In this document: in pieces, positions 15,001-30,000 of the stretch | Layout: each line of letters starts with the position of its first letter | Position numbering within the stretch: position 1 is the stretch's first letter | Assembly: GCA_038087875.1 (NCBI GenBank) | Contig: CM075985.1 | Span: 24,862,001-24,926,000 of the forward strand | DNA from: Malacoraja senta | Taxonomy: Eukaryota | Reading direction: 5' to 3' | DNA: 64,000 nt | Position numbers: made by a program

Positions 15001-18000
15001 CTGAGGATTAAGTATTTCAGTCAATTCAAGCAGATTATGGTCTGTGAATGAGGAAGTTGAGGATCCAATTGCAGAGGGATGCACAGAGACCCAATTCCGT
15101 GAGCTTGGTAACCAGCTTGCAGGGGATGATGGTATTGAACGCCAAGCTGTAGTCTATAAACAACAGCCTGACGTAAGTGTTATATTGTCCAAGTGGTCCA
15201 GTGTGGAGTGGAGAGCCAGTGAGATTGCATCCTCCGTGGACCTATTGTGATGGTAGGCAAACTGTAATGGGTCGAGGTTCTTGTTGAGGTAGGGGTTGAT
15301 ATGCCCCATAACCAACTTCTCAAAGAGTTGTGACCAATTGATGTACATGAGTTGCTGTGGAGATTCATTACTTATCCCTAGATTGTATATTTTGACTAAA
15401 CATCATCTGCTCAGTTTCAAAAGTACTGTACATTGAATGCATTGAGACAGCAGTGTGCCCCAATTAGTCAGCTAGAAGTTCTGCTCAATGGTGCATCTAG
15501 TAGTTCTGGTCAGTGGTGCATGGTGCATCTGGTCAGTGGTGGACTCACTGCTGAGATCTTCAGCCAAGGACGAGGCCAAAGTTGCCTGGAGTTCCAGAGC
15601 AGGTGGTGATAATTTTCACAGGAGCAGGTGCTGACACAGAGGCTGGTCTGGGTGGTCGGGATGCGTGTTGTTGTGAGTAGACCAGGTTTGTAAGCATAAT
15701 CAAGAATAGAAATAAGGAGACTGGGAGTGGGGCAGGGTTGATGACTAAGTTCTTATTAGATCTTGGTGCATCATGATGGCAGGGTCCTGAGATTATCAGT
15801 CCGGCTGAGGCATTGGTATCCGTCGGTGCCCTGTATGTGGCGACTCTTTGCATACCTTGTGTATGCAAAACAAAGAATCTCACGGTGACATGTCACGTGA
15901 TAATAAAGTATCATTCATTCATTCATACAGCAATACAAGTCTCTTATGATAACATGCTTGGAAGACTGATTAAATTTTGACCTCCTCATCTGAGAAAATA
16001 TATGCTTCCTGAGAGATCGTGCAGTGAAAGTTGACCGGATTGACTTCCGCTCCAGCAGAATTGTCATATCTGGAGAGATTAGGTCAAGTCCGTTTAACCA
16101 CCTGTAGTTAGTAGAATGGAAGAAAGCCTCACTGCAACTTCAAAAATCCAGAGAGGTCTGATAAGGATTCCCCTTGCTGTGGAGACTTAGACTATTGGGT
16201 CACAGTCTCAAGATATTGGCACGAAATTATGGACTGAAATGAGGAGAACATGAGGAGAGAGTGAGGCCCTGTGGAGTTTGCTAATCAAAACACTTGAGAG
16301 CCAACATCACTGAATATATTTTAGGAGGTAGAGAAATATAAAATATCAAAAGCCTCAAGGGGGTTGGATAGAAAGCGATCATCAGCCATAATCATATTGA
16401 ATGGCAGAGCTTGTCCTTCCATTTACTATACAATTAAAATAGTTGAGTGCCAATTGTCCATTTCCCTTATTGGCCAATAAATGAATCACCAGAGGAAATC
16501 GGTCTCGGACAGGCGGTAGAAAACTGGATTTTTATCCCGCCACCCCCCTCAAAGGCGCCAAAGTCACGCACATGGCCAGTGGCAGAACTGCAGCGCAGCT
16601 GAAGGTAAGTATTGTAACATTGCTACAACATGCTGGAGTAACTCAGCGGGACCGGCAGCATCTCTGGAGAGAAGGAATGGATGATGTTTCGGGTCGAGAC
16701 CCTTCTTCAGTCTGAAAGAAGGGTCTTGACCTGAAACGTCACCCATTCCTTCTCTCCAGATATGCTGCCGGTCCCGCTGAGTCACTCCTACATTTTGTAG
16801 GAGTCTATCTCAATTTTCTTGGCCCCGCTCTGGGAGCAGAAGAGGGGACGGATCGGATCCGCAATGGCCGTGAGCCCCAGGCCGAGTTCGACGATCGTTT
16901 GCCTGCTTCTACTGCTGTTGGAGGTGAGAGGTTGCGTCACGCCAGGGTCTTGGGCCTGTCCCACTTTGGCCGTCAGTTACGCAACGGGTCGGTTGCTCGC
17001 GAAGATTCCGTTTGGTACAAAATTCCGGAACGCCGCGCGATACCGCGCACAACTCCATACCCCTCCGCGCTTCTCAGTGGAAGCGGCCCCGCGCGGCCAC
17101 ACGATGCCCGTGCGCCTCAACGCGATGACGAGGTCACTTAATTTGCATGCCAAGGACACGCAAGTGGGACAGGCCACTTCACCAAAAGAGTTTCAGACCA
17201 CAACATCATCTACTACCAGCTACAAACTAAACAGGTAACAGTGGGATTACAGTACTTCTTGCCCACAATTGTTCTTGAAAGGAACCTGGTTTATTCTTCC
17301 GTCTTTGAACAAAATATCACTGATTGTATCTCACATTATTCTTCCTAATTGATTGCTTTGATAGGATGGCATCATTGGATTGATGTTGCAATTTAAAGGG
17401 CAACATGAAGAAGAAAATCTATTGTTAACATGACAATCTAACTGAATGTGATGAATGGAAACACAAAAGATGCTGATGGAAGGTTGTGCACTTGCCTCCT
17501 TAACATGGGGCAATTGTGAATTGACCAGCAATAAATGCCTGCATTGCTGGTGGTACCTACACCCTGAAATAAAAAATGAAAAGATGGACCTGATGCCAAG
17601 TCATCGAGCAACAGTGTGCATTATAACTTGCTGTGATATCTTTTATGTTTTACAGAAACAACAACAACAAAGGTACCACCCACAACTACATCGACCCGCA
17701 GCTACACAGCTGGTAAGTGATTGACGGTTGTTTATCCTTGCACCAAGTTTGTCGGCACAGGTCTCTGGGTGAGCCATTGAGAAAGCAGCAACGTACAACT
17801 TTCACAGCTTTCTCAGATAATGCATTTTCTAAACATTTGCTTTTGAATTAATTGTAGCTGTGGACTTTGTGTTGTAAATTATGGATAATCTTCAGAGGAC
17901 TGTGTTTCGGTGAATTTTCCCATTAGACTGTGCTGATCAAGAAATCAACACCAGTTGATACAATATTCAGTGATGTGCATAATTGGCAGAAATAGGCTCA

Positions 18001-27000: not shown

Positions 27001-30000
27001 TGGGTGAGCCATTGAGAAAGCAGCAACGTACAACTTTCACAGCTTTCTCAGATAATGCATTTTCTAAACATTTGCTTGTGAATTAATTGTAGCTGTGGAC
27101 TTTGTGTTGTAAATTATGGATAATCTTCAGAGGACTGTGTTTCAGTGAATATTCCCATTAGACTGTGCTGATCAAGAATTCAACACCAGTTGATATAATA
27201 TTCAGTGATGTGCATAATTGGCAGAAATAGGCTCATGATTATGTGCCTCCAATATGTGAAATGCAAATGAGTATTCCACAGATTATTTTGATTTAATATA
27301 TCTTGTCATCCAAAAATATTGTGATTCAAAAGAAGGCAAAATGTTTCAGGAATTTGGGAGTAGGTGCTGCACATCTTCACAACTATAAACCCGGCCAGTG
27401 CTGAGAAATACCATCAAATGAGGAAATATGTATCTTGCTATTTTATTTTGTACTTTTGGTTAATGAACACTTGAAGGAAGATGAACTGAACCTTTGCTTC
27501 TCCTTTTCCAGACTGGAAATGTAATGGTGTCTGGTCTGCATGGTATAATGACCACATACCAACTGAATACAGTCCAGGCGATACTGAATTACTGGAATCC
27601 ATACGGCAAGATCTGTGTCCTTCCAGTTACTGTACAATTAAAAAGGTTGAGTGCCAATTTGTCGATTTCCCTTATTGGCCACTAAATGATTCACCAGACA
27701 ATGTGACCTGTGACCCAGACTTAGGACTGGTCTGCATAGTCTCCAATGAGCCTTTGGAGGAAGTCAACATCTGTTTTGACTATCAAATTCGATTTTGCTA
27801 TGAGCATGTAGCAACAACAACTCCAAGTACAACATCAACAACAACAATTTCAGGTAAATATGCCAGTCATGTGCAAGGATACTGTCTTTTATTGATGGGG
27901 CATTTGGAATTTTATCTGTTTCAGTGAGAGTTCCTGATGCATTTCCATCCATCACGTTTCCCCTCTAATGAGCTCTGTACAAACTAGCCAGCCCATATTC
28001 TCTCCATTAATCCCCACTCTTCATGTGGCCATGCTACTTCTCATTTTCTTAAAATTCTATCCCTCACCGACGACTTCCTTCTGCTGCGGTCCATACACTC
28101 TCTCATCCTCCTTCCCTCTGTCTATTTCCAGCAGTAATTCTCAAGCCACCGATCTAAGCTACAGAGTATCCTTCAACTTGGATACCTTTCCCTATGAGGA
28201 ACTCTTACTCTGCCCTTCTTTAACTCTCTATCACTCCTTAACACCATTGAGAAACAACTTCACCAAAAGAGTTTCAAACAACAACATCATCTACTACCAG
28301 CTACAAACTAGACGGGTAACAGTGGGATTACTGTACTTCTTGCCCACAGTTGCTCTTCAAAGGAACCTGGTTTATTCTTCCGTCTTTGAACAAAATATCA
28401 CTGATTCTATCTCACATTATTCTTCCTAATTGATTGCTTTGATTGGATGGCATAATTGGATTTATGTTGCAATTTAAAGGGCAACATGAAGAAGAAAATC
28501 TATTGTGAACATGACAATCTAACTGAATGTGATGAATGGAAACACAAAAGGATGCTGATGGAAGGTTGAGCACTTGCCTCCTTAACATGGGGCAATGGTG
28601 AATTGACAATAGATGCCTGCATTGCTGGTGGTACCTACACCTTGAAATAAAAAATGAAAAGATGGACCTGATACCAAGTCATCGAGGAACAGTGTGCATT
28701 ATAACTTGCCGTGACATCTTTTATGTTTTACAGAAACAACAACAACAAAGGTACCACCCACAACTACATCGGCCCGCAGCTACACAGCTGGTAAGTGATT
28801 GACGGTTGTTTATCCTTGCACCAAGTTTGTCGGCACAGGTCTCTGGGTGAGCCATTGAGAAAGCAGCAACGTACAACTTTCACTGAGCTTTCTCAGATAA
28901 TGCATTTTCTAAACATTTGCTTTTGAATTAATTGTAGCTGTGGACTTTGTGTTGTAAATTATGGATAATCTTCAGAGGACTGTGTTTCAGTGAATATTCC
29001 CATTAGACTGTGCTGATCAAGAATTCAACACCAGTTGATACAATATTTAGTGATGTGCATAATTGGCAGAAATAGGCTCATGATTATGTGCCTCCAATAT
29101 GTGAAATGCAAATGAGTATTCCACAGATTATTTTGATTTAATATATCTTGTCATCCAAAAATATTGTGATTCAAAAGAAGGCAAAATGTTTCAGAGATTT
29201 GGGAGTAGGTGCTGCACATCTTCACAACTATAAACCGGGCCAGTGCTGAGAAATACCATCAAATGAGGAAATATGTATCTTGCTATTTTATTTTGTACTT
29301 TTGGTTAATGAACACTTGAAGGAAGCTTCTCCTTTTCCAGACTGGAAATGTAATGGTGTCTGGTCTGCATGGTATAATGATCACACACCATCTGAATACA
29401 GTCCAGGCAATACTGAATTACTTGAATCCATACGGCAAGATCTGTGCCCTTCCATTTACCATACAATTAAAAAAGTCGAGTGCCAATTTGCCGATTTCCC
29501 TGAATGGCCAATAAATGAATCGCCAGACAATGTGACCTGTGACCCAGACGTAGGACTGGTCTGCAGTGTCTCCATAGAATCCTTGGAGGAAGTCAAGGTC
29601 TGTCTTGACTATCAAATTCGATTTTGCTGTGAGAATATAGCAACAACAATTCCAAGTACAACATCTGTTTTCAGCTGCAATTCTACATTCACCAATCTAC
29701 TCAAACATGGCCTATCATCCATCTTTGTTCCTTTTCCCAATGAGGAACCCTTACTCTTCCCTCCTTTAACCCTCTCTCACACCTTATCTGCTCTCTGCTA
29801 CAGATTCATCTTGATTATCTTATCGCTTTTTCATTCACCTCCATAAAATTCACATGGACCTTGTTGTCATTAAAACTGAGAGGCCTTGAATGTATGTGGT
29901 GTAGTAGACAGTTTGGAAGGCGTAGCGCAAAAGGAGAGCAAGGGGAGGTGGACAGGATAAGCTCTCGGAGTCACAATAGAAGACGGGAGAAAATCTGAAG

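What the first reader, a model, noticed from the sequence alone, without database searches (positions are those of the whole stretch)
17176..29665. Intron-containing 1.85 kb tandem array encoding a 133-aa CysD plus short Thr-linker repeat
Seen: each unit contributes 57+342 = 399 coding nt, giving CysD beads separated by only ~30-35 Thr-rich residues. Introns look as similar between copies as exons do. Established: in mammalian MUC5AC/MUC5B, CysD and PTS repeats lie in one giant exon with long PTS spacers. Inference: here mucin length and CysD valency are set by recent unequal crossing-over of an exon-intron cassette. The product would be CysD-dense and PTS-poor, and copy number probably varies between individuals.
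Basis: partly seen in the sequence, partly recalled or inferred. Interest (0 to 1): 0.68.

Follow-up and report, generated by a model that had tools for sequence, protein, structure and literature searches.

The report
Skate mucin built from repeated exon cassettes
A mucus-gel gene of a skate carries seven near-identical 1.85 kb copies of a two-exon cassette (a short sugar-bearing linker plus a cysteine-rich "CysD" bead), so the number of cross-linking beads in the mucin is set by copying whole exon-intron blocks rather than by repeats inside one giant exon as in mammals.

Summary
Window 17176-29665 holds six full units of 1843-1850 bp and a truncated seventh. Each unit has a 57-nt Thr-rich exon and a 342-nt CysD exon. 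Both are AG/GT-bounded and phase 1-1, giving 133 codons per unit. Introns are as alike between copies as exons.

The array lies in the central domain of a plus-strand MUC2/MUC5-type gel-forming mucin, between D3 exons (1171-5131) and D4 exons (50344 onward). The window is not human. Its nearest relatives are skate mucins: Rhinoraja longicauda 87% and Amblyraja radiata 86% over the non-repeat exons.

Unit 6 is an exact hybrid of the 5' part of unit 7 and the 3' part of unit 5. That is the product one unequal crossover would give.

All 24 exons modelled in the central domain between 12104 and 46741 are phase 1-1, counting unit 7's CysD exon on its weak substitute donor. Elasmobranch orthologues have the same bead-and-short-linker plan, with CysD copies alike within each species.

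Expression and copy-number polymorphism stay untested.

This is a new variant of a known kind, of moderate interest.

The parts
17176..29665 (+). Tandem array: units 1-6 (17176-19022, 19023-20869, 20870-22716, 22717-24564, 24565-26413, 26414-28256) and truncated unit 7 (28257-29665)
19503..19559 (+). 57-nt Thr-rich linker exon of unit 2, phase 1-1. The same exon lies at 17656-17712, 21350-21406, 23198-23254, 25048-25104, 26891-26947 and 28734-28790
   Evidence: AG before and GTAAGT after in 7 of 7 units; no stop
20124..20465 (+). 342-nt CysD exon of unit 2, phase 1-1, 8 Cys and WSAW. The same exon lies at 18277-18618, 21971-22312, 23819-24160, 25669-26010 and 27512-27853
   Evidence: AG/GTAAAT in 6 of 6 full units; Pfam PF13330
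29341..29655 (+). CysD exon of unit 7. The acceptor is kept and the original donor is deleted. The end shown is the best of three weak phase-compatible GT sites (CAA|GTACAA), so it is uncertain
19018..19081 (+). 64-nt relic of a second linker exon. It is present in units 2-7 with AG and GT kept; unit 1 lacks the acceptor. Its length is not a multiple of 3, so inclusion would shift the frame into a stop
   Evidence: homologous to the intact 54-nt exon at 31625-31678
12104..12184 (+). 81-nt Thr-rich linker exon upstream of the array, phase 1-1, followed by intron sequence 71% identical to the unit
12650..12682 (+). Broken CysD relic (residues 47-57 only), with no acceptor
16412..16500 (+). Second broken CysD relic (residues 35-64, with a frameshift), followed by unrelated sequence holding an 85-nt inverted repeat (16623-16800)
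31625..34335 (+). Older diverged unit 8: linker exons 31625-31678 (54 nt) and 32031-32096 (66 nt), and CysD exon 33994-34335 (342 nt, 'type B', 69% aa identity to unit 2). About 1.6 kb of sequence with no match to the array unit lies between the linker exons and the CysD exon
35356..35415 (+). 60-nt linker exon with no CysD exon after it. A further 60-nt linker exon lies at 43100-43159
44201..44683 (+). 483-nt PTS exon (160 whole codons, 114 Ser+Thr, 22 Pro), phase 1-1, built of 9- and 15-nt micro-repeats
46685..48003 (+). 57-nt linker exon (46685-46741) and the last CysD exon (47609-48003, 395 nt), which is orthologous across elasmobranchs
1171..6653 (+). Exons of the D3 assembly (1171-1359, about 2206-2706 with VWD end and C8, 4573-4701, 4988-5131) and post-D3 exons (6177-6208, 6550-6653)
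50344..62598 (+). Exons after the central domain: 50344-50517, D4 VWD 50787-51023 and 52668-52883, 52960-53166, C8 54644-54841, 56018-56125, 60595-60708, 62500-62598

Best explanation
The array is a real, recently expanded part of the central (mucin) domain of a MUC2/MUC5-type gel-forming mucin gene of a skate.

The domain is built from symmetrical phase 1-1 exons. CysD exons are 342 nt, and Thr-rich linker exons are 54-81 nt, about 19-20 aa each. Any cassette can therefore be duplicated, deleted or skipped without breaking the reading frame. Misaligned recombination between the 1.85 kb units (unequal crossing-over, with some gene conversion) adds and removes whole linker+CysD cassettes and keeps exons and introns alike.

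The predicted product has 8-9 CysD beads about 133 residues apart. Each pair of beads is joined by about 33 O-glycosylatable residues. After the beads come one longer PTS block and a last, conserved CysD before D4.

By analogy with mammalian CysD domains, the beads would act as non-glycosylated adhesive or cross-linking points. They have a calcium-binding beta-sandwich fold, take part in filament assembly, and stiffen gels when supplied in tandem. A bead-dense mucin should therefore give a tighter gel.

Shown here: the repeat, the exon structure, the domain identity, the gene context, the hybrid unit and the cross-species pattern. Inferred: splicing of the array exons, the recombination mechanism as a process, and the gel properties.
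For: Repeat and exons:
- Shown: - 7 of 7 linker exons and 6 of 6 full CysD exons keep AG/GT, an open frame, 8 Cys and WSAW.

Domain identity:
- Pfam Mucin2_WxxW above cut-off for units 2, 7, 8 and the last CysD.
- PDB sequence search: MUC5B CysD E 1e-12, MUC2 CysD E 1.3e-9.

Gene context:
- VWD and C8 Pfam hits on flanking exons.
- The exon at 2518-2706 aligns to the D3 C8 of MUC5AC and MUC2.
- The exon at 50787-51023 aligns to the MUC2 C-terminal VWD.

Phase symmetry:
- All 24 modelled exons between 12104 and 46741 have lengths that are multiples of 3 with phase-1 ends, counting unit 7's CysD exon on its weak substitute donor.

Unequal crossover:
- Unit 6 is the 5' part of unit 7 joined to the 3' part of unit 5, and it sits between them. 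This is exactly the order a single misaligned crossover produces.
- Units 1-4 are mosaics that share sites with units 5/6 in patches.

Lineage-specific homogenisation:
- In a tree of 61 CysD domains (29 distinct), internal CysDs group by species. Identical copies number 13 in Heterodontus, 6 in Rhinoraja, 5 in Mustelus and 5 in Carcharodon.
- The last CysD forms one orthologous clade (100/100).

Shared plan:
- Bead spacing is 133 aa here and 134 aa x5 in Rhinoraja.
- It is 120-438 aa in the other orthologues with two or more CysDs. The commonest values are 120, 140 and 160, and many steps are about 20 or 40 aa.

Use of the exons:
- The Amblyraja radiata models contain the orthologous 113-aa CysD exon and 21-aa linker with the same junction residues.

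Function by analogy:
- Javitt et al. 2020 (PMC7599080, passages read): CysD fold, calcium binding, role in assembly, and the importance of PTS linker length.
- Gouyer et al. 2015 on tandem CysD strengthening gels, seen only as cited in that paper and in the search listing.
Against: - There is no RNA or read evidence for this window, so splicing and copy number are not verified.
- dN/dS between unit types is 0.5-1.7. For unit 2 against unit 5 it is 1.68, with 12 nonsynonymous and 2 synonymous changes, not different from neutral (binomial p = 0.75). Purifying selection on non-Cys positions is therefore weak or not detectable.
- Unit 7 has lost its donor.
- Every unit carries a 64-nt element with AG and GT that would break the frame if spliced in.
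- Two CysD relics upstream are plainly dead.
- The hybrid structure of unit 6 could also arise by gene conversion of a 5' tract.
- Units 2 and 3 differ at only 2 of 1847 positions, so an assembler could have miscounted them.
Confidence: 0.8

Rival explanations
1. Assembly artefact: the true locus has fewer (or more) units, and near-identical copies were mis-stacked by the assembler.
For: Units 2 and 3 differ at 2 of 1847 positions. Unit 6 has no private change over unit positions 1-1426 and is an exact hybrid of its neighbours, which a chimeric join of reads could also produce.
Against: Every unit is distinguishable. Units 1 and 4 differ from unit 2 at about 13 and 15 positions, and units 5/6 at about 3%. 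Units 5 and 6 differ at 5 positions inside the part they share (523, 853, 1486, 1749, 1767). Unit lengths differ (1843-1850) and there is no N. Independent assemblies of other species give models with 4-15 repeated CysDs.
Confidence: 0.08
2. Decaying array: the cassettes are (partly) pseudo-exons that are not spliced into the mature mRNA, and the working mucin uses only the older unit 8, the PTS exon and the last CysD.
For: Dead CysD relics and transposon pieces sit directly upstream. Unit 7 lost its donor. There is a frame-breaking relic exon in each unit. dN/dS is near 1 between unit types.
Against: Six of six full units keep both exons open with consensus splice sites and all 8 Cys. The Cys relocation is shared with Amblyraja and keeps an even Cys count. 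The Amblyraja models include these exons.
Confidence: 0.08
3. The likeness of the copies is kept mainly by gene conversion among old copies (concerted evolution without recent change in copy number), not by recent duplication.
For: Patchy sharing of sites among units 1-6. The same unit type (type A) already existed before the split from Amblyraja. The hybrid pattern of unit 6 fits a conversion tract as well.
Against: The hybrid lies between its two parents in the order expected for a crossover product, with matching indels. It carries the 4-nt deletion of unit 7 and lacks the 2-nt insertion of unit 5. Copy numbers in the annotated models differ between species: 13 identical copies in Heterodontus, 6 type B in Rhinoraja, and 3-4 type A in Amblyraja against 6-7 here.
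Confidence: 0.25

Closest known systems
Mammalian MUC5AC / MUC5B / MUC2 central domains
   Same: D3 - (PTS and CysD alternating) - D4 layout. CysD domain with WxxW (Pfam PF13330). Repeated, nearly identical CysD copies within one gene (PMC9712336, passages).
   Different: There the whole PTS/CysD region is one exon of 9-11 kb (PMC9712336 passages: MUC2 8994 bases, MUC5B 10,893 bases) and the PTS blocks between beads are long. Here each bead and each 19-aa linker is its own exon, the repeat unit includes introns, spacers are about 33 residues, and beads make up roughly 60% of the central domain. That share is my estimate from the exon table.
Annotated elasmobranch orthologues (Rhinoraja longicauda mucin-5AC-like, Amblyraja radiata mucin-2-like, Carcharodon, Heterodontus, Mustelus and others)
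   Same: 87% and 86% identity to the window over about 900 aligned residues of non-repeat exons for the two skates. Same bead spacing (134 aa in Rhinoraja). Same 113-aa CysD exon peptide in Amblyraja, including the relocated Cys.
   Different: A different unit type is amplified in Rhinoraja (type B) than here and in Amblyraja (type A). Copy numbers differ, and copies are homogenised within each species. These are automatic gene models; I found no paper describing them.
Chicken Muc13 PTS domain encoded by multiple exons (Lang et al. 2006, PMC1552070, passages read)
   Same: One exon per repeat unit of a mucin domain, with the suggestion that length could be set by alternative splicing.
   Different: That is a transmembrane mucin whose exons encode PTS repeats only. 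It has no CysD and no VWD assemblies.
CysD-only lateral-line 'Mucin-5AC' of fishes (PMC11765562, passages read; 27 CysD in A. radiata, 19 in S. canicula)
   Same: Chains of many CysD domains with little PTS in cartilaginous fish.
   Different: That protein lacks VWD/VWC domains. The gene here has D3 and D4 assemblies on either side of the array, so it is a different gene.

Membership tests
Gel-forming mucin of MUC2/MUC5 type | VWD-C8-TIL assembly (D3) directly N-terminal of the central domain | tested here: met
   VWD end (1987-2454) reached the Pfam cut-off. The exon at 2518-2706 aligns to the D3 C8 of MUC5AC 1082-1135 and MUC2 1045-1098. 62-100% identity to orthologue D3 exons. TIL was not scanned on its own.
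Gel-forming mucin of MUC2/MUC5 type | CysD (WxxW) domains interspersed in the central region | tested here: met
   Nine CysD exons (7 in the array, plus 33994-34335 and 47609-48003). Pfam PF13330 E 2e-15 to 2e-18 on the four exons scanned (units 2, 7, 8 and the last).
Gel-forming mucin of MUC2/MUC5 type | PTS (Pro/Thr/Ser-rich) domain | tested here: met
   Exon 44201-44683: 114 Ser+Thr and 22 Pro in 160 codons. Linker exons are 11-20 Ser+Thr in 18-26 codons.
Gel-forming mucin of MUC2/MUC5 type | Fourth VWD-C8 assembly (D4) after the central domain | tested here: met
   Pfam VWD at 50751-51047 and 52599-52871, and C8 at 54605-54859. MUC2 C-terminal structures matched.
Gel-forming mucin of MUC2/MUC5 type | Signal peptide, D1-D2 assemblies and C-terminal cystine knot | not testable with these tools
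   These lie outside the window. The window starts inside D3 and ends before the end of the orthologue models.
MUC5 versus MUC2 orthology | Placement with one paralogue in a tree, or synteny | not tested
   Sources name the orthologues both 'mucin-5AC-like' and 'mucin-2-like'. PDB scores do not separate them.
CysD domain (Pfam PF13330 Mucin2_WxxW) | Score above the curated cut-off, and a WxxW motif | tested here: met
   57.4 bits against a cut-off of 22.4, covering profile positions 1-87 of 88. WSAW or WSSW in all 9 exons.
CysD domain (Pfam PF13330 Mucin2_WxxW) | Full set of conserved cysteines (ten in mammalian CysD, a number I recall and did not check) and calcium-binding residues | tested here: inconclusive
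   All 61 elasmobranch CysDs examined have 8 Cys in the aligned span. 9 of 61 (window units 1-6, Amblyraja 1-3) have one Cys moved. Disulfide pairing and calcium ligands could not be read from the tools.
Classical mucin VNTR (tandem repeat inside one large exon) | The repeat unit is wholly coding and lies within a single exon | tested here: not met
   The 1.85 kb unit is 399 nt coding and about 1450 nt intron. Only the 483-nt PTS exon has in-exon micro-repeats.
CysD-only lateral-line mucin (zebrafish muc5AC family) | No VWD/VWC domains | tested here: not met
   VWD and C8 exons flank the array on the same strand.

The most novel reading that the evidence does not exclude
Because every central exon is phase 1-1, bead number and linker length may be tuned at two levels: in DNA by unequal crossing-over, and in RNA by skipping cassettes. 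One allele would then yield a ladder of mucins with different CysD valency.

The conserved 64-nt frame-breaking relic in each unit could act as a poison exon that throttles output.

Annotated isoforms of relatives fit the first part. The two Amblyraja isoforms differ by exactly one 113-aa CysD exon. Five of five compared Scyliorhinus torazame isoforms differ from the longest by 19, 38, 57, 76 and 95 aa, that is 1-5 linker modules. Such models can also come from spliced reads mis-placed among identical repeats.
Probability: 0.3. Interest if true: 0.7.

Novelty: new variant of a known kind. Interest (0 to 1): 0.48.

Why it matters
Mucin repeat domains are usually described as one large exon (PMC1552070, passages; the abstract of PMC13345508 in the listing says all mucins harbour a large VNTR exon). 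Here a gel-forming mucin has its beads and linkers as separate, frame-neutral exons. The whole cassette, introns included, is the unit of expansion.

That gives a natural series for asking how CysD number and spacing set gel properties. Bead spacing is 133-134 aa in skates and 120-438 aa in sharks, most often 120-272 aa. The authors of the MUC2 assembly structure raise this question themselves (PMC7599080, discussion).

It also warns that such loci are easy to mis-assemble and mis-annotate.

The finding concerns gene architecture. It is not a new protein family, and automatic models of the orthologues are already public.

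Tried and rejected
- Tandem Repeats Finder cannot see the array because its period limit is 500.
- A 'longer' word-index search with the CysD exon found nothing, since only proteins of 199-2000 aa were searched. The exhaustive search then found 225 relatives.
- A third protein search, with the Amblyraja type-A units, found no skate closer than Amblyraja or Rhinoraja.
- Rfam (0 matches at gathering score) and a tRNA scan (0 genes) gave no RNA gene that could explain the intron likeness.
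- Pfam scan of 74 of the 109 stop-to-stop ORFs of 85 aa or more. I left out 17 ORFs inside array units other than unit 2, and 18 overlapping exons already studied or the Thr repeat. The scan gave only mucin domains and three transposon-type hits.
- I considered the 38-nt ORF piece after 'TTTCAG' as a third exon. It is part of the 64-nt relic, and neither form keeps the frame.
- I considered positive selection on the beads (dN/dS 1.68 for unit 2 against unit 5), but it is not distinguishable from neutrality.
- Five literature searches turned up no description of intron-containing CysD cassette arrays or of skate or shark gel-forming mucin gene structure. Subscription journals and supplements were not seen.
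- The disulfide map of CysD is in a figure of PMC7599080 that I could not see, so the effect of the moved Cys is open.
All searches were made exon by exon, so whole-protein comparisons of this gene were left out.
- No structure prediction was run.
The exon-intron structure of the orthologous loci could therefore not be read.

Full report
**What is there**

The window holds no N. A direct-repeat search found seven copies spaced 1843-1850 bp apart. A count of shared 16-mers peaks at an offset of 1847, with harmonics up to six units. Tandem Repeats Finder missed the array only because its period limit is 500.

BLASTN of unit 2 against the window gave these identities:
- units 1, 3 and 4: 99.2-99.9%
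- units 5 and 6: 97.1% and 96.7%
- unit 7: 94.1%, over unit positions 1-1426 only

**Exons**

Each unit has two exons:
- a 57-nt exon, with ...TTTTACAG before and GTAAGT after
- a 342-nt exon, with ...TTTTCCAG before and GTAAAT after

Both start with two bases that complete a codon and end with one base of the next. They are therefore phase 1-1 and together give 133 codons.

All 7 linker exons and all 6 full CysD exons are open and keep their splice sites. The 342-nt exon is a CysD domain: Pfam Mucin2_WxxW at 57.4 bits against a cut-off of 22.4, the solved MUC5B CysD at E 1e-12 and MUC2 CysD at E 1.3e-9.

The Thr/Ser/Pro-rich stretch between beads is 33 residues, 21 of them Ser or Thr. I counted this by eye.

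**Introns against exons**

Between unit 2 and unit 5 the three intron segments differ at 13/421, 11/564 and 8/403 positions, and the CysD exon at 14/342. The exon is, if anything, slightly more diverged (Fisher p = 0.09).

Of the 14 exon changes, 12 alter the protein. dN/dS is 1.68, not different from neutral (p = 0.75). Against unit 7 and unit 8, dN/dS is 0.47-0.86. The likeness of the introns is thus explained by recency, not by constraint. Rfam and a tRNA scan found nothing in the window.

**Gene context and organism**

The array lies on the plus strand inside a gel-forming mucin gene.

Upstream are exons of the D3 assembly. The VWD end and C8 are at 1987-2706, and the C8 aligns to the D3 C8 of MUC5AC and MUC2. 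Downstream are D4 exons, with VWD at 50787-51023 and 52668-52883 and C8 at 54644-54841.

The exhaustive protein search with one CysD exon gave 225 relatives, led by shark and ray proteins.

Thirteen non-repeat exon stretches were compared with 24 named elasmobranch proteins. The two best overall matches were:
- Rhinoraja longicauda 'mucin-5AC-like': 86.9%
- Amblyraja radiata 'mucin-2-like': 85.9%

Pristis pectinata 'mucin-2-like' was 75.0% and Narcine bancroftii 71.0%. The sharks were 61-69%, and the remaining ray proteins 54-66%.

The window is therefore from a skate, not from a human. No closer species turned up. Whether the gene is the MUC5 or the MUC2 orthologue was not resolved.

**The whole central domain is made of frame-neutral cassettes**

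After the post-D3 exons (6177-6208, 6550-6653) come the following exons:

| Exon | Coordinates | Length (nt) |
|---|---|---|
| Linker | 12104-12184 | 81 |
| Array cassettes | 17176-29665 | 7 x (57 + 342); unit 7's CysD exon about 315 |
| Unit 8 linker a | 31625-31678 | 54 |
| Unit 8 linker b | 32031-32096 | 66 |
| Unit 8 CysD | 33994-34335 | 342 |
| Linker | 35356-35415 | 60 |
| Linker | 43100-43159 | 60 |
| PTS exon | 44201-44683 | 483 |
| Linker | 46685-46741 | 57 |
| Last CysD | 47609-48003 | 395 |

Every exon from 12104 to 46741 is AG/GT-bounded with a length that is a multiple of three, counting unit 7's CysD exon on its weak substitute donor.

Summed exon by exon, the central domain has about 1490 residues with nine CysD beads. 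I estimate the beads at roughly 60% of it. In the human MUC5B exon of 10,893 bases, seven CysD-type domains of about 100 aa make up about a fifth (numbers from PMC9712336, passages).

'CysD-dense and PTS-poor' is thus fair.

All searches were made exon by exon.

1. **A relic exon in every unit.** Each unit carries a 64-nt relic of a second linker exon (unit 2: 19018-19081).
   - It keeps AG and GT and is open in the Thr-rich frame.
   - It is homologous to the intact 54-nt exon of unit 8 and to 'ETTLPTTKQTTTTPSYKP' in the Rhinoraja model.
   - Two insertions make it 64 nt, so including it would shift the frame into a stop at the start of the CysD exon.
   - It must be skipped for a productive message.
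2. **Unit 7 has lost its donor.** A deletion joining unit positions 1426 and 1712 removed the donor of its CysD exon. Only weak phase-compatible GT sites remain, the best being CAA|GTACAA at 29656.
3. **Dead CysD fragments upstream.** Two lie at 12650-12682 and at 16412-16500 (the latter frameshifted). Nearby are reverse-transcriptase-type fragments at 10126-10446 and 14282-14806 and an 85-nt inverted repeat at 16623-16800.

**How the array grew**

At the sites where units 5 and 7 differ, unit 6 shows this pattern:
- It matches unit 7 at 20 of 20 sites in unit positions 21-457.
- It matches unit 5 at all but one site from 630 to 1411. The exception, position 853, is a change private to unit 5.
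- It has no private change of its own over positions 1-1426.
- It shares the 4-nt deletion of unit 7 and lacks the 2-nt insertion of unit 5.

A hybrid made of the 5' part of the downstream neighbour and the 3' part of the upstream neighbour, sitting between the two, is what one misaligned crossover produces. A conversion tract could give the same mosaic.

Units 5 and 6 have since diverged at five positions in their shared part. Units 1-4 share sites with units 5/6 in patches. This points to repeated exchange.

**Across species**

In a maximum-likelihood tree of 61 CysD domains (29 distinct), the last CysD of every species forms one clade (100/100). The internal CysDs group by species, often as identical copies: 13 in Heterodontus, 6 in Rhinoraja, 5 in Mustelus and 5 in Carcharodon.

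Skates have two internal types:
- type A: window units 1-7 and Amblyraja
- type B: window unit 8 and Rhinoraja

Different types were amplified in different lineages.

Bead spacing in the orthologues is 120-438 aa. The commonest values are 120, 140 and 160, and many steps are about 20 or 40 aa, as expected if linkers are built from 19-21-aa mini-exons.

**A moved cysteine**

Window units 1-6 and Amblyraja units 1-3 (9 of 61 domains) have lost the second Cys of the 'CC' pair and gained a Cys 55 positions upstream. The other 52 have neither change. All 61 keep eight Cys. This is one event on the tree, but the even count suggests a re-paired disulfide. I could not see the disulfide map, which is in a figure of PMC7599080.

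**Use of the exons**

I have no RNA for this window.

The Amblyraja models contain the orthologous 113-aa CysD exon and a 21-aa linker with the same junction residues. The two Amblyraja isoforms differ by exactly that CysD exon. Five of five Scyliorhinus torazame isoforms compared with the longest differ by 19, 38, 57, 76 and 95 aa of 'ETTPPEIPTTTTSTTSYIP'-type modules.

This fits cassette skipping. It could also reflect spliced reads mis-placed among identical repeats.

**Likely working**

By analogy with mammalian CysD, the beads would be non-glycosylated contact points. The relevant properties are a small calcium-binding beta sandwich, a requirement for MUC2 filament formation, reach set by the length of the PTS tether, and a report that tandem CysD strings strengthen gels (PMC7599080, passages). 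A mucin with a bead every 133 residues should form a denser network than one with long PTS spacers. This step is inference.

**Prior knowledge**

- Lang et al. 2006 state that PTS domains of previously described mucins lie in one large exon, and report chicken Muc13 as the exception (PMC1552070, passages).
- Lang et al. 2016 list one Muc2 and one Muc5 in the ghost shark but do not discuss gene structure (PMC4948705, passages).
- A 2025 paper describes a different, VWD-less CysD-chain protein with 27 CysDs in A. radiata (PMC11765562, passages).
- Shark skin proteomics found mucin-5B and mucin-2-like proteins (PMC10707392, passages).

Five searches found no description of intron-containing CysD cassette arrays. 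Subscription journals and supplements were not seen.

**Verdict**

This is a new variant of a known kind of gene, already visible in automatic annotation of related species but, as far as my searches reach, not described in print. Interest is moderate.

Noticed in passing
window 19018-19081 (and the same place in units 3-7; unit 1 at 17171-17234 without the acceptor): A 64-nt relic linker exon with AG and GT kept. It is open in the Thr-rich frame but its length is not a multiple of 3. It is homologous to the intact 54-nt exon at 31625-31678. It would act as a frame-breaking (poison) exon if spliced in.
   Followed up: yes
window CysD exons of units 1-6, e.g. 20124-20465: One cysteine has moved: the 'CC' near the end became 'CY', and a Tyr/His 55 residues upstream became Cys. 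Both changes occur together in 9 of 61 elasmobranch CysDs (window units 1-6, Amblyraja 1-3) and in none of the other 52. The Cys count stays at 8.
   Followed up: partly
window 29341-29786: A deletion in unit 7 removed the donor of its CysD exon and about 285 bp of the following intron. The open frame runs on to a stop at 29844-29846.
   Followed up: yes
window 12650-12682 and 16412-16500: Two dead CysD fragments lie upstream of the array. Between and around them are reverse-transcriptase-type ORF pieces (10126-10446 minus strand, RVT_1; 14282-14806 minus strand, ALKBH8_N-type hit) and an 85-nt inverted repeat at 16623-16800.
   Followed up: partly
window 37961-38263, minus strand: An ORF with a weak tyrosine-recombinase (Phage_integrase) match, 22.9 bits, below the cut-off of 27.1. 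It may be a remnant of a recombinase-bearing retroelement in the long intron before the PTS exon.
   Followed up: no
window 41480-41720: An 84-nt tandem repeat, 2.9 copies, 91% matches, in the most G+C-rich part of the window (40-42 kb, 49% G+C). It lies on no mucin exon, and its nature is unknown.
   Followed up: no
proteins P0358/P0164 (Amblyraja radiata) and P0314 with P0305, P0308, P0310, P0311, P0316 (Scyliorhinus torazame): Annotated isoforms differ by exactly one 113-aa CysD exon (Amblyraja), or by 1-5 modules of 19 aa (S. torazame). The clusters holding the S. canicula and S. torazame orthologues have 37 and 35 member sequences.
   Followed up: partly
window 6177-6208 and 6550-6653: Two alternative post-D3 exons. 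The Amblyraja model uses the first ('VCKNGKVICR'-type) and the Rhinoraja model the second (Ser/Thr-rich). Which is used here, or whether both are, is open.
   Followed up: no
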